Below, piece after piece: positions 9,001-12,000 of a stretch of 16,302 nt of DNA (positions are counted from its first letter, which is position 1; each line of letters begins with the position of its first letter). Made by a program: the position numbers. The stretch is from a virus, in the UHGV virus genome UHGV-0148496; one strand, 5' to 3'.

Positions 9001-12000
9001 GTGGCGCACGCCGGACAACATTTTCTGGGGAATTAACACCCTGTTTGGCCCGTTTGTTCTGGATCTGTTCACTGATGGTGATAACGCCAAATGTGCCGCT
9101 TATTACACTGCGGAAGACAACGCGCTGGCGCATGACTGGTCTGAACGTCTTGCGGAGCTTAAAGGTGCTGCCTTTGGTAATCCCCCGTACAGCCGCGCCA
9201 GTCAGCATGAGGGGCAATACATCATCGGCATGCGTTACATCATGAAACATGCCAGTGCCATGCGTGATAAAGGCGGGCGCTATGTTTTCCTGATCAAAGC
9301 TGCCACCAGCGAAGTGTGGTGGCCGGAAGATGCAGATCATATTGCTTTTATTCGCGGGCGTATTGGTTTTGAACTGCCTGCCTGGTTTATCCCGAAAGAC
9401 GAAAAGCAGGTGCCAACAGGTGCTTTCTTCGCTGGTGCTATTGCTGTTTTCGACAAGACCTGGAAGGGACCGGCAATCAGCTACATAGGGCGCGATGAAC
9501 TTGAGGCATGTGGTGAGGCGTTTCTGGCGCAGGTTCGCCAGCAGGCGGAAAAACTGGTCAGGGAGATGGCGGCATGACGACATTAACTCAATGCCAGCAG
9601 CAGGTGCTGGATATGCTGATTTCTTATCAGAAAGAACGTGGCTTCCCGCCAACCAATCAGGAGGTGGCAACCATGCTGGGATACCGTTCGGTGAATGCAG
9701 CGGTGGAGCATCTTCGCGCACTGGAGAAAAAAGGTGTCATCACGATAAAGCGTGGCGTGGCCCGGGGTATCACTCTTCATACCGCGGTGAAGGACGACGA
9801 CAGCGAGGCGGTCGGGATTATCCGCGCCCTGCTTGCCGGTGAGGCAAACGCCAGGCTGCGTGCAGCCCACTGGTTACATGAGAGGGGCCTGAAAGTATGA
9901 AGCTAATACTGCCTTTTCCGCCCAGCGTGAACACGTACTGGCGACACCCCAACAAAGGGGCGTTTGCTGGTAAGAGCCTGATAAGCGCGGCGGGGCGAAA
10001 ATTCCAGAGCGCGGCGTGTGCAGCAATAGTTGAGCAGTTACGTCGTCTGCCGAAACCAACGTCGGCACCTGCTTCAGTGGAGATCGTGTTGTTTCCTCCG
10101 GATAACCGGATCCGCGATCTGGACAACTATAACAAGGCGCTGTTTGACGCCCTGACCCACGCGGGTGTGTGGGAAGACGACAGTCAGGTGAAAAGAATGC
10201 TGGTGGAGTGGGGACCGGTTATCCCGGAGGGGAAGGTCGAGATCACTATCAGTAAGTACGAAAAAGCGAGTTGCAAATTAGCAACTCGGTAACGGAATTG
10301 AGCAACACCCTAAATTTGGGTATTACCTCGTTAAAGATACTGTATTTATGAACAGTGTATCCTTGATAACTATTAAAAATCGCAGTAAGTTCATCCTGCA
10401 TCAACGAAAAGGGAGTGCAGTCCCGCTCGTGGATAAAAATTTGTGGAGAAACCAATGAATCAGTTGCTTGTAATTGATGGCGTTTCTGTGCGTCAGTACT
10501 TCGAATCTAACTACTGTCTTAACGACCTTCAGAAAGCTGCTCTTCTTGCCGCTGGTGAGAATCGCTCCTCCCGTTCGCTGGAAGTTCACGAGTTTATGCG
10601 TCGTCCTGAAACGAAGGCTCTTGTGGAATTATTGGAAGAAGAAACTACGGGAGATTCCCGTAGTATTCCTGTCATCACCATTCAGGGGCGCAATGGTGGG
10701 ACGTATGTCTGTAAAGAGCTGGTCTATGCATATGCAATGTGGATCAGCCCGGCATTCAGCTTAAAAGTGATACGTACTTTTGATGCGCTTCATAATTCAT
10801 CACCAGAAGAAACCACATCCGACAAAATTAAATCCGGGGTCATTCTGCTTGAATCAGCAGCAAAGACTCTAAATCTGTCAAACTCCTCGAAACTTGGTGC
10901 ATACCAGAAATTATCAAAGGTAGCTGGTCTTCCTGAACTTATGCCGATCTATGCCATTGATGCACCTGCTGATGCGCCAGATGGTTCAAGCCGCCCTACG
11001 CTGTCGCTGAGTGCACTGCTGAAGCAGTATGGTATCCGCCTGACGGCTAATCAGGCATATCACCAGATGGCGAAGCTGGGGATCGTTGAACAACGCGAAC
11101 GATACAGCCGTACCGCGATTAACAACATCAAAAAATTCTGGTCGCTGACCGCGAAAGGCTGCATGTTCGGCAAGAACATCACCAGTCCTGCAAATCCGCG
11201 CGAGACGCAGCCGCATTTCTTCGAATCCCGATTTCCTGAGCTGTTAAAGCTGCTCGATACCGTTCATTGAGGTGACTGTGAGAGCACTACTGACCCCTGA
11301 AATTGCCCCGCGTATGGGGATCGTATTGTTCAGGCCAGGTTCAGAGCTGATGCCCCTGTTTATGCAGGGGCGTGTCCTGCTGGAGCCTGAGCCGGAGCGT
11401 TATTCATCTTTCGCCAGTGGTGCCGTTCCGGCGGCATCACAACCGCTGGCGGATGATCCTGCCGTTCGGGCCGTGTTCCGCCATGAGGCAGTGATCCGTC
11501 GTGCTGGTGGCGTGGAATGTCTTGAAAGCTGGTTACTTCGTGAAAAAGGCTGCCAGTGGCCTCATTCCGGATGGCACAGCGAGAACATGACCACAATGCG
11601 ACACGCTCCGGGCGCAATCCGTCTGTGCTGGCACTGCGATAACCAGCTGCGCGATCAGTTCACGGAACGGCTGGAATCAATGGCAACGGATAACTGTGCC
11701 CGCTGGGTGTTGTCTGTTGTGCGTCGGGATCTCGGTTTTGATGACAGTCACGTTGTGACAATGCCGGAACTGTGCTGGTGGCTGATTCGTAATGACCTGG
11801 CGGATGCCTTACCGGAAAGTGCAGCCCGTAAGGCACTGAGATTACCGAAGCCTGTTGTGCCGTCTGTCACCCGGGAAAGTGACCTTGTGCCTTCGGTTCC
11901 TGCCACCAGCATCATCCAGGATAAAGCGAAAAAGGTGCTGGCGCTGAAAGTGGATCCGGAGTCGCCGGAGTCTTTTATGTTACGCCCCAAACGTCGCCGC

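What the first reader, a model, noticed from the sequence alone, without database searches (positions are those of the whole stretch)
10338..10357. Canonical SOS box in front of a KilA-N (antirepressor-like) gene
TACTGTATTTATGAACAGTG has the complete CTGT-N8-ACAG core about 100 bp upstream of the KilA-N ORF. This looks like a LexA-controlled antirepressor module, as described for Gifsy-type prophages and coliphage 186 Tum, and it would be a second SOS-responsive induction route alongside the autocleavable CI-type repressor. The phage's own LexA-DBD homolog could also act here.
Basis: partly seen in the sequence, partly recalled or inferred. Interest (0 to 1): 0.6.

Follow-up and report, generated by a model that had tools for sequence, protein, structure and literature searches.

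The report
LexA box before prophage kilA-N operon
A real-looking binding site for the bacterial DNA-damage repressor LexA sits in front of a KilA-N gene in a lambda-like prophage. It probably switches on a small kilA-N/DUF968(/Q) sub-operon after DNA damage, but nothing shows that the KilA-N protein is an antirepressor.

Summary
TACTGTATTTATGAACAGTG lies at 10338-10357, 97 nt before the ATG (10455) of a KilA-N gene, in a 162-bp gap after rusA. It scores 21 bits on a LexA matrix (known E. coli sites 12.5-27), against 8e-4 such sites expected per window.

The box is kept while its flanks drift in E. coli variants. LexA-like boxes recur upstream of KilA-N homologues in other Enterobacterales, but only where the gene has its own upstream gap.

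A host-LexA-controlled secondary promoter is the best reading. "Antirepressor" is not supported:
- The protein has a KilA-N/APSES fold plus a winged-helix-like C-terminus, with no ANT/KilAC, Tum or Gifsy-type similarity.
- The same protein (99% identical) sits in a prophage whose repressor is only 24% identical.
- The resident CI carries an S24 (self-cleaving type) domain.

The gene is packed with DUF968 and Q, so the promoter may also feed the late-gene antiterminator.

The phage's truncated LexA (43% identical to the LexA DNA-binding domain) could use the box, but the box does not track that gene.

Side finding: a stronger LexA box inside cI (5119-5138) is conserved at synonymous sites down to 50% protein identity.

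The parts
10267..10288 (.). Palindrome CGAGTTGC-AAATTA-GCAACTCG overlapping the last codons of rusA. It marks the left edge of the inserted cassette. It has no T-run on the + strand, and a terminator-like T-run only on the - strand.
   Evidence: The palindrome and the gap are absent from the no-gap allele (Stx2a_1447).
10338..10357 (.). LexA operator (SOS box) TACTGTATTTATGAACAGTG
   Evidence: It is unchanged in the E. coli variants sampled apart from one end base (G->A, towards the consensus) in AZ187 and SfIV. It aligns with CGCTGGATGTTTGTTCAGTG in Raoultella.
10363..10391 (+). Best candidate sigma-70 promoter, TTGATA-17 nt-TAAGTT. The box ends 5 nt upstream of the -35. The inferred start is near 10398.
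   Evidence: Read from the sequence. It is 8/12 to consensus, so below the scan tool's threshold. The aligned Raoultella sequence has TTGAAG-17-TAATCT in the same columns. Inferred, not mapped.
10316..10343 (+). Alternative weak promoter, TTGGGT-16 nt-TACTGT, in which the left arm of the box is the -10.
   Evidence: Read from the sequence. The -35 is TTGAAT in strain AZ187. It is not conserved in Raoultella. Inferred.
10411..10424 (+). 5'-UTR hairpin GGGA-GTGCAG-TCCC, with an outer CGA/TCG stem at 10405-10429. The loop (G/T)TGCAG is conserved and the stem covaries.
   Evidence: It is also present, as GGCGG-GTGCAG-CCGCC, in alleles that lack the gap. There is no Rfam family for it.
10445..10457 (+). 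Ribosome-binding site GGAG and the ATG of the KilA-N gene
   Evidence: GTGGAGA...ATG is conserved across homologues.
10455..11270 (+). KilA-N domain protein, 271 aa: KilA-N/APSES fold at 1-114, a helical linker, and a winged-helix-like domain at 182-266
11272..12267 (+). DUF968/HNH-like protein. Its start (11272 or 11278) is 1-7 nt after the kilA-N stop.
   Evidence: It follows KilA-N in nearly all homologous loci.
12285..12656 (+). Q antiterminator. The ATG is 17 nt after the DUF968 stop and has its own GGAG.
   Evidence: Only weak terminator-like hairpins (12201-12266) lie in between.
9574..9900 (+). Phage LexA-DBD-only protein (108 aa), a possible second ligand of the box
5119..5138 (.). 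Second, stronger LexA-type box TACTGTTTTTACATACAGTA inside the linker codons of the cI-like gene. It belongs to the same putative LexA wiring of the prophage.

Best explanation
The 20-bp palindrome is a functional operator for the host SOS repressor LexA. It belongs to a small self-contained cassette: palindrome, LexA box, weak sigma-70 promoter, conserved 5'-UTR hairpin, then the ribosome-binding site. The cassette sits between rusA and kilA-N in the nin region of an mEp460/SfIV-like lambdoid prophage. In a lysogen, LexA keeps this secondary promoter shut. When RecA* drives LexA self-cleavage after DNA damage, the promoter fires. KilA-N and the tightly packed DUF968 protein are then made independently of PR and CI, and Q may be made by read-through. 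KilA-N is a DNA-binding protein of unknown target, not a demonstrable antirepressor. Shown here: the site, its score, its conservation, its association with gap-bearing alleles, the gene packing and the protein fold. Inferred: LexA binding, the promoter position, SOS inducibility and read-through into Q.
For: (1) Site quality. The score is 21.0 bits, inside the 12.5-27.1 range of known E. coli sites, and the approximate HI is 5.45. Chance expectation is 8e-4 per window. (2) Conservation within E. coli. The gap occurs in 186 complete genomes. In the most diverged copy (87.7% identity, AZ187) the box changes only at its last base, towards the consensus, and the hairpin is unchanged; the -10 is unchanged and the -35 differs at one base. 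(3) Comparison across genera. Of about 22 non-redundant full-length homologues with an upstream gap, 8 carry a box of >=11.5 bits and 10 carry one of >=7.5 bits within 400 bp. The background rate in 460 kb of the same loci is 0.0039 per 150 bp, giving about 0.2 expected. In Erwinia L027 the box GATTGTATATTTATACAGTC overlaps the -10 of a strong TTGCCA-17-TATATT promoter. In Raoultella the box lies in the same columns as in the window, followed by TTGAAG-17-TAATCT. None of the many homologues translationally coupled to the upstream gene (gap 16-42 bp) has a box. (4) The gap is not coding. An 11-bp indel (10426-10436) is common. (5) Gene packing. kilA-N, DUF968 and Q are 1-17 nt apart, with no convincing + strand terminator, and KilA-N-DUF968 linkage is nearly universal. 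(6) Precedent. LexA-controlled loci embedded downstream of the replication genes, and preceded by a palindrome, are known in the Gifsy prophages (PMC3121763).
Against: There is no experimental LexA binding or transcript-start data. The tool's sigma-70 scan found no promoter in the gap, and my best candidate is only 8/12 to consensus. With that promoter the box lies at about -41 to -60, abutting rather than overlapping the core promoter, which is a less common position for LexA repression. Several homologous boxes are degenerate in one half (L004, L009, L030, L127, L128). The LexA matrix and HI rest on site sequences recalled from memory. The comparative counts are not phylogenetically independent. 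Weak hairpins with T-rich tails just before Q (12201-12266) may stop most transcripts short of Q.
Confidence: 0.7

Rival explanations
1. KilA-N is a LexA-controlled antirepressor, as in 186 Tum, N15 AntC or Gifsy GfoA/GftA. It binds and inactivates the resident CI, giving a second SOS route to induction.
For: There is a LexA box in front of the gene. The position resembles the Gifsy SOS locus (PMC3121763). KilA-N domains do occur in some proteins annotated as antirepressors (general knowledge; weak BFVD hits to 'antirepressor' entries at E>0.2).
Against: No antirepressor-type domain is found, even at E<=5. The fold is that of a DNA-binding protein. A 99%-identical KilA-N sits next to a repressor only 24% identical, so there is no co-variation with immunity type. 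Many alleles are simply part of the PR operon with no box. The resident CI has an S24 domain. A separate Rha/C4/IsrK antirepressor-type module is already present.
Confidence: 0.12
2. The box is mainly, or additionally, the target of the phage's own truncated LexA (9574-9900). After induction, this GIL01-gp6-like protein binds next to the -35. It either activates the kilA-N-DUF968-Q promoter or re-represses it and the host SOS genes once host LexA is gone.
For: The 108-aa protein is 43% identical to LexA residues 1-87, and its recognition helix (RSVNAAVEHLRAL against RSPNAAEEHLKAL) and wing are largely conserved. GIL01 gp6 is a truncated LexA homologue, 44% identical to host LexA, that binds a site overlapping the -35 and activates a late promoter (PMC6182141). 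In the window, Raoultella L007 and L127 the box sits just upstream of a -35-like element, all three encode the LexA-DBD protein, and the promoter-proximal half CAGTG is the better conserved one.
Against: The box occurs without a LexA-DBD gene within 3 kb upstream in L011, L012, L013 and L027. The gene occurs without a box in L008, L010 and the Stx2a_1447 type. The protein lacks the LexA dimerisation domain, so its affinity for a palindrome is uncertain. There are no binding data.
Confidence: 0.15
3. The promoter exists mainly to supply Q. LexA cleavage gives CI-independent Q synthesis and so direct SOS control of late genes (lysis, and toxin genes in related phages). KilA-N and DUF968 are passengers.
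For: kilA-N, DUF968 and Q are 1-17 nt apart, and Q follows DUF968 in most box-bearing loci. No strong terminator lies in between.
Against: Two weak hairpins with T-rich tails lie immediately before Q (12201-12266). In FRIK944 the same cassette precedes an unrelated Q. Uncontrolled Q would be lethal, and the promoter is weak. Q expression was not measured.
Confidence: 0.15
4. The palindrome is a non-functional relic or a chance match in AT-rich intergenic DNA.
For: No promoter passes the scan threshold. Some homologues have decayed boxes.
Against: The chance expectation is 2e-5 for the gap. The box is retained while the flanks change. Boxes are enriched only in gap-bearing homologues.
Confidence: 0.05

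Closest known systems
Gifsy-1/-2/-3 SOS locus (dinI-gfoA/gftA-irsA) of Salmonella (Lemire et al. 2011, PMC3121763)
   Same: A LexA box with its own promoter is embedded in the early-right region downstream of the replication genes and preceded by a palindrome. It creates a LexA-controlled sub-operon inside a lambdoid prophage.
   Different: The cargo is KilA-N + DUF968 (+Q), not dinI plus a small antirepressor. The resident repressor here has an S24 domain. The palindrome lacks a T-run on the + strand. No antirepressor activity is shown or suggested by homology.
LexA-controlled antirepressors: coliphage 186 Tum and N15 AntC (named as precedents in PMC3121763); SPC32H Ant (my own knowledge, not checked here)
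   Same: A LexA operator at the promoter of a single prophage gene, as an SOS input.
   Different: There is no sequence or domain similarity. Those phages depend on the antirepressor because their repressors are not RecA-cleavable. Here the gene is optional, and many alleles have no box.
GIL01 LexA/gp7/gp6 control of the late promoter P3 (Fornelos et al. 2018, PMC6182141)
   Same: The phage carries a truncated LexA homologue about 44% identical to the host LexA DNA-binding domain, plus LexA boxes at a promoter that governs late-gene expression.
   Different: GIL01 has no CI and uses LexA as its lysogeny repressor. Its host is Gram-positive. Here the link between the truncated LexA and this box is untested and not consistent across loci.
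Canonical E. coli SOS operators (recA, uvrA, sulA, umuDC ...)
   Same: A 20-bp palindrome with the CTGT-N8-ACAG core, a score and approximate HI in the middle of the known range, and an AT-rich spacer.
   Different: It lies on a mobile mosaic cassette, and its position relative to the promoter is unmapped.

Membership tests
Gammaproteobacterial LexA operator (SOS box) | 20-bp imperfect palindrome with the CTGT-N8-ACAG core | tested here: met
   16/20 to TACTGTATATATATACAGTA, and the core is complete.
Gammaproteobacterial LexA operator (SOS box) | Matrix score or heterology index within the range of experimentally verified sites | tested here: met
   21.0 bits against 12.5-27.1 for known sites; approximate HI 5.45. 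Caveat: the matrix was built from site sequences recalled from memory.
Gammaproteobacterial LexA operator (SOS box) | Overlaps or abuts the promoter of the regulated gene | tested here: inconclusive
   The scan found no promoter. The manual candidates are TTGATA-17-TAAGTT (box 5 nt upstream of the -35, conserved in Raoultella) and TTGGGT-16-TACTGT (box over the -10). No transcript start has been mapped.
Gammaproteobacterial LexA operator (SOS box) | Retained at orthologous loci | tested here: met
Gammaproteobacterial LexA operator (SOS box) | Bound by LexA, and the downstream gene induced by DNA damage in a lexA-dependent way | not testable with these tools
   Needs EMSA or footprinting, ChIP, and reporter or RNA-seq experiments.
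LexA-controlled prophage antirepressor module (186 Tum, N15 AntC, Gifsy GfoA/GftA) | LexA box at the gene's promoter | tested here: met
   As above.
LexA-controlled prophage antirepressor module (186 Tum, N15 AntC, Gifsy GfoA/GftA) | Product homologous to a known antirepressor family (Tum/DinI-like, GfoA-like, ANT/KilAC, AntA, Rha, Bro-N) | tested here: not met
   Pfam finds only KilA-N at E<=5, and nothing for the C-terminal 157 aa alone. NCBIfam finds nothing. PHROG 129 is 'transcriptional regulator'. Fold searches return only KilA-N/APSES and winged-helix folds.
LexA-controlled prophage antirepressor module (186 Tum, N15 AntC, Gifsy GfoA/GftA) | Resident immunity repressor is not RecA-cleavable, so induction depends on the antirepressor | tested here: not met
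   The repressor at 4655-5347 has HTH + Peptidase_S24 domains and an Ala-Gly in SASAGNG.
LexA-controlled prophage antirepressor module (186 Tum, N15 AntC, Gifsy GfoA/GftA) | Antirepressor matched to the repressor type | tested here: not met
   KilA-N is 99% identical in FRIK944, where the repressor is 24% identical. This is my own criterion, and it is soft: the Gifsy and Fels-1 antirepressors act across different prophages (PMC3121763).
LexA-controlled prophage antirepressor module (186 Tum, N15 AntC, Gifsy GfoA/GftA) | Product binds and inactivates the repressor | not testable with these tools
   Needs pull-down or induction assays.
KilA-N domain proteins (PF04383) | Pfam KilA-N above the gathering score, with an APSES-like fold | tested here: met
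Truncated phage LexA homologues (GIL01 gp6 type), applied to ORF 9574-9900 | LexA winged-HTH domain only, about 40-45% identical to host LexA, with no S24 domain | tested here: met
   PF01726 E=2.9e-19. TIGR00498 matches positions 1-91 only.
Truncated phage LexA homologues (GIL01 gp6 type), applied to ORF 9574-9900 | Binds a site at a phage promoter and activates it | not testable with these tools
   Only the positional analogy exists: the box lies next to a -35-like hexamer.

The most novel reading that the evidence does not exclude
The prophage is wired to LexA at several points that act together. (i) Host LexA shuts a promoter in front of kilA-N-DUF968-Q. (ii) Host LexA also shuts a promoter inside cI (TTTACC-17-TACTGT on the cI strand, box 5119-5138). 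After DNA damage, that promoter makes an mRNA for the C-terminal S24/dimerisation half of CI. The fragment would be a gene-within-a-gene dominant-negative (or a RecA* decoy) that sharpens or tunes induction. (iii) The phage's truncated LexA, made from PR, then occupies the same boxes (and the host SOS boxes), as gp6 does in GIL01. My evidence shows that the three sequence elements exist and that two of them are conserved. It does not show any of the activities.
Probability: 0.15. Interest if true: 0.8.

Novelty: new member of a known kind. Interest (0 to 1): 0.45.

Why it matters
If the box works as inferred, a widespread mosaic cassette puts an uncharacterised DNA-binding protein and an HNH-like protein under direct host SOS control. 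It may put the late-gene antiterminator Q under that control too, independently of the phage repressor. The cassette is found in 186 of 5,426 complete E. coli genomes, in Shigella phage SfIV, and in forms present in Raoultella, Erwinia, Serratia and Edwardsiella. This would be one more way in which DNA-damaging antibiotics reach prophage genes. It also gives a handle on the function of the KilA-N-DUF968 pair that precedes Q in many lambdoid prophages, including Stx phages, although those carry the box-less allele. The cI-internal LexA box, if functional, would be a new layer in the lysis-lysogeny switch of the mEp460/SfII/ST64B repressor family.

Tried and rejected
- The sigma-70/terminator scan of 9800-11400 found no promoter in the gap and no + strand terminator. 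My promoter assignments are therefore manual and tentative.
- The minus-strand ORF 10249-10455 (68 aa) that spans the gap is rejected as a gene. An 11-bp indel (10426-10436) is common in natural variants.
- The third CTGT-N8-ACAG copy at 6349-6364 is rejected as chance (6.1 bits, approximate HI 16).
- Rfam has no family for the gap or the hairpin, at either the gathering or the E<=10 threshold.
- The 5'-UTR as a whole folds no better than shuffles (z=0.17). Only the short hairpin is supported, and that by covariation.
- The single-sequence AF2 model was useless (pLDDT 38.6). The alignment-based model was usable (78.5).
- Foldseek against the PDB gave nothing significant for the full-length model. 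The afdb50 library was not available.
- The PDB sequence search found nothing.
- PADLOC gave only a partial KilA-N-core hit to candidate PDC-S22, which is uninformative.
- The viral-contig scan with the cI protein returned only near-identical copies. Diverged cI genes were taken from the phage collection instead.
- Literature: only two open-access papers contain both 'KilA-N' and 'LexA', and neither concerns this locus. Searches on ST64B+LexA, SfIV+KilA, nin region+SOS box and PhiR49/ECOR13 found no description of this box.
- Linkage between the box and the LexA-DBD gene was examined and found inconsistent.
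Full report
**What is there**

The window is the early region of a lambdoid prophage. In order it holds:
- Ead/Ea22 and DUF2303 genes on the minus strand;
- an HTH+S24 repressor (4655-5347, minus strand);
- cro-like and cII-like genes;
- a Rha-domain ORF and a replication-initiator-like gene;
- PerC and Dam;
- a 108-aa LexA_DNA_bind-only protein (9574-9900);
- RusA (9897-10292);
- a KilA-N protein (10455-11270);
- DUF968 (11272-12267);
- Q (ATG 12285, ends 12656);
- an AraC-type gene, three tRNAs, and a DUF1737/SASA gene.

The cI gene is 99.6-100% identical in protein to those of mEp460 and PhiR40_1. The dam-to-DUF968 segment is 98-99% identical to PhiR49_1 and Shigella phage SfIV.

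**The observation**

TACTGTATTTATGAACAGTG is at 10338-10357, exactly as reported. The CTGT-N8-ACAG core is at 10340-10355, in a 162-bp gap between the rusA stop and the kilA-N ATG, with 97 nt from box to ATG.

I scored it with a matrix built from 30 E. coli LexA sites. Those site sequences were recalled from memory, so the absolute numbers are approximate.
- The site scores 21.0 bits, against 12.5-27.1 for the known sites.
- Its approximate heterology index is 5.45, next to recA (4.8) and uvrA (5.7) on the same scale.
- The exact score distribution gives 8e-4 sites of >=21 bits expected per window, and 2e-5 in the AT-rich gap.

**The gap is a mosaic unit**

In Stx2a_1447, SfII, SfV and most viral contigs, rusA is followed after 19 bp by a KilA gene with a different N-terminal allele. 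Those loci have no gap and no box.

The gap-plus-box allele is found in 186 of 5,426 complete E. coli genomes and in SfIV and PhiR49_1.

In the most diverged E. coli copies (87.7-92.6% identity in the gap):
- the box changes only at its last base (G->A, towards the consensus, in AZ187 and also in SfIV);
- substitutions and an 11-bp indel (10426-10436) accumulate around it.

The indel also rules out the 68-aa minus-strand ORF that spans the gap.

**Comparison across genera**

A genome scan returned 80 loci encoding relatives of the KilA-N protein.

Homologues translationally coupled to the upstream gene (gaps of 16-42 bp: Proteus, Morganella, Providencia, Citrobacter, Shigella) never have a LexA-like site.

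Of about 22 non-redundant full-length homologues with their own upstream gap:
- 8 have a site of >=11.5 bits within 400 bp: the window, Raoultella L007, Pantoea L011, Serratia L012, Rosenbergiella L013, Edwardsiella L024, Erwinia L027 and viral contig L127;
- 2 more have a site of >=7.5 bits.

The background in 460 kb of the same loci is 0.0039 sites of >=11.5 bits per 150 bp, which gives about 0.2 expected. These counts are not phylogenetically independent. Even so, the flanks are largely unalignable while the box persists.

Two layouts occur.
- In Erwinia L027 the box overlaps the -10 of a near-consensus TTGCCA-17-TATATT promoter, the classical SOS arrangement.
- In the window and in Raoultella the box occupies the same alignment columns and is followed after 5 nt by TTGATA-17-TAAGTT (window 10363-10391) or TTGAAG-17-TAATCT.

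The scan tool did not call a promoter in the gap. The window's promoter is therefore inferred. A weaker alternative, TTGGGT-16-TACTGT, would place the box over the -10.

**What the promoter would transcribe**

kilA-N, DUF968 and Q are separated by 1-17 nt. KilA-N is followed by DUF968 in nearly every locus, and usually by Q.

There is no convincing + strand terminator between 10455 and 12285. Two weak hairpins with T-rich tails lie at 12201-12266.

The SOS promoter would therefore at least make KilA-N and DUF968. How much transcription reaches Q is open.

**Is KilA-N an antirepressor?**

Nothing supports that label.
- Pfam finds only KilA-N (residues 10-114), even at E<=5, and nothing for the C-terminal half alone. 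NCBIfam finds nothing, and PHROG 129 is labelled 'transcriptional regulator'.
- The same protein (99% identical) occurs in an O157:H7 prophage whose repressor is 24% identical and whose Q is unrelated. The cassette therefore does not track immunity type.
- The resident repressor has an S24 domain. By contrast, the Gifsy repressors are not degraded on induction and depend on small LexA-controlled antirepressors (PMC3121763).
- The window also carries a separate antirepressor-type module: IsrK and C4 antisense RNAs at 6606-6794, inside the Ash/Rha ORF.

The Gifsy locus remains the closest architectural analogue. It too has a LexA box downstream of the replication genes, preceded by a palindrome.

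**The phage LexA-DBD protein**

The recognition helix and wing are largely conserved, and a motif aligns with the LexA cleavage site (LLAGEA against VAAGEP). It has no S24 domain.

GIL01 gp6 is a truncated LexA homologue, 44% identical to its host LexA. It activates a late promoter from a site overlapping the -35 (PMC6182141).

However, boxes occur without the gene within 3 kb (L011, L012, L013, L027), and the gene occurs without a box (L008, L010, Stx2a_1447). Host LexA is the more economical ligand.

**Side findings**

*A conserved LexA box inside cI.*
- The best LexA-type site in the window is TACTGTTTTTACATACAGTA at 5119-5138 (24.8 bits; 17/20 to the consensus). It lies in the linker codons (about 70-76) of cI.
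- It is retained at the same position in SfII, ST64B sb38, Klebsiella P7641, Eeyore/Flotzy and Cronobacter ENT47670 (50% protein identity; 20-26 bits).
- It is absent from homologues at about 42-44% identity.
- Third-codon-position identity is 0.95 in the box codons against 0.455 across the gene. The flanks are 0.62 and 0.40 identical.
- On the cI strand, TTTACC-17 nt-TACTGT looks like a promoter with the box over its -10.
- A purine-rich Shine-Dalgarno-like run and an in-frame GTG follow in most lineages. This suggests an SOS-induced mRNA for the C-terminal half of CI, but it is a hypothesis only.
- One published hint: genes downstream of the ST64B repressor are highly expressed under peroxide and nitric oxide shock (PMC7067206).

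*A conserved 5'-UTR hairpin.*
- A hairpin with the loop (G/T)TGCAG and a covarying stem precedes the kilA-N ribosome-binding site in both gap and no-gap alleles.
- 93% of cells pair, against 60% in shuffles, and all five pairs change on both sides.
- Caveat: the sequences were chosen by a script that required a short stem.

**Verdict**

The site is real and is very probably a functional LexA operator controlling a secondary, SOS-inducible promoter for kilA-N-DUF968 and possibly Q. It is a new member of the known class of LexA-controlled prophage loci. I found no description of it in the searchable literature. The antirepressor interpretation is not supported.

Noticed in passing
window 5119-5138 (inside cI-like gene 4655-5347, minus strand): This is the strongest LexA-type box in the window: TACTGTTTTTACATACAGTA, 24.8 bits, in the linker codons of cI. 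It is conserved at synonymous sites (third-position identity 0.95 against 0.455 gene-wide) in cI homologues down to 50% protein identity: SfII, ST64B, Klebsiella P7641, Eeyore, Cronobacter ENT47670. TTTACC-17-TACTGT on the cI strand, followed by an SD-like run and an in-frame GTG, suggests an SOS-controlled internal promoter for the CI C-terminal half.
   Followed up: partly
window 10411-10424 (outer stem 10405-10429): A hairpin, GGGA-GTGCAG-TCCC, lies 20 nt before the kilA-N RBS. The loop (G/T)TGCAG is conserved, and the stem covaries across Enterobacterales (GGCGG/CCGCC, GTCGG/CCGAC, TTCAT/ATGAG ...). It is present even in alleles with no gap or box, and there is no Rfam family for it. Proteus and Morganella homologues have a different hairpin at the same place.
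   Followed up: partly
window 6606-6682 and 6707-6794 (+), inside ORF 6246-7397: Rfam IsrK (61.6 bits) and C4 antisense RNA (82.4 bits) lie inside the mechanical ORF that carries the Pfam Phage_ASH and Rha domains. This ORF is annotated 'antirepressor' in Stx2a_1447. It looks like a P1 immI / Gifsy-1 IsrK-type RNA-controlled module, so the 'Ash' part of the ORF may be RNA genes rather than protein.
   Followed up: no
window 9574-9900 (+): A 108-aa LexA N-terminal-domain-only protein, 43% identical to E. coli LexA 1-87. It has a conserved recognition helix and wing, and a motif (LLAGEA) aligned to the LexA cleavage site (VAAGEP), but no S24 domain. It is analogous to GIL01 gp6.
   Followed up: partly
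window 10267-10288: An 8-bp-stem palindrome covers the last rusA codons. It has a T-run only on the minus strand (CTTTTTCGTA), so it looks like a terminator for leftward rather than rightward transcription. No leftward promoter was found in the gap.
   Followed up: no
window 10426-10436: An 11-bp indel (CTCGTGGATAA) between the hairpin and the RBS distinguishes two common E. coli variants of the gap. About 40 of the 186 genomes lack it, including O157:H7 and O111:H8 strains.
   Followed up: no
window 14337-14356: A third LexA-like site, AAGTGGATGTTTATCCAGCA (15.3 bits, approximate HI 9.6), lies inside the AraC-type gene 13960-14673. About 0.04 such sites are expected per window.
   Followed up: no
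window 14702-15236: Three tRNA genes and the sRNA STnc100 lie between the AraC-type gene and a DUF1737/SASA (NanS-p-like) gene. This matches the Q-tRNA-stx-nanS layout of Stx phages, but without stx.
   Followed up: no
L001 (AP012536.1, Stx2a_1447) 11146-11165; also L005 6156, L013 5951, L032 5460: Strong LexA-type boxes (22-24 bits; for example TACTGTAAAAATATCCAGTT) recur downstream of Q. In Stx2a_1447 the box is at the very start of the 'DNA methylase' CDS, which precedes the tRNAs and stx2AB.
   Followed up: no
L255 (E. coli O157:H7 FRIK944, NZ_CP016625.1 5726000-5745000): The same LexA-DBD - rusA - box - kilA-N - DUF968 cassette is combined with an unrelated S24 repressor (24% identity) and a different 250-aa antiterminator. 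This shows that the cassette moves as a mosaic unit.
   Followed up: yes
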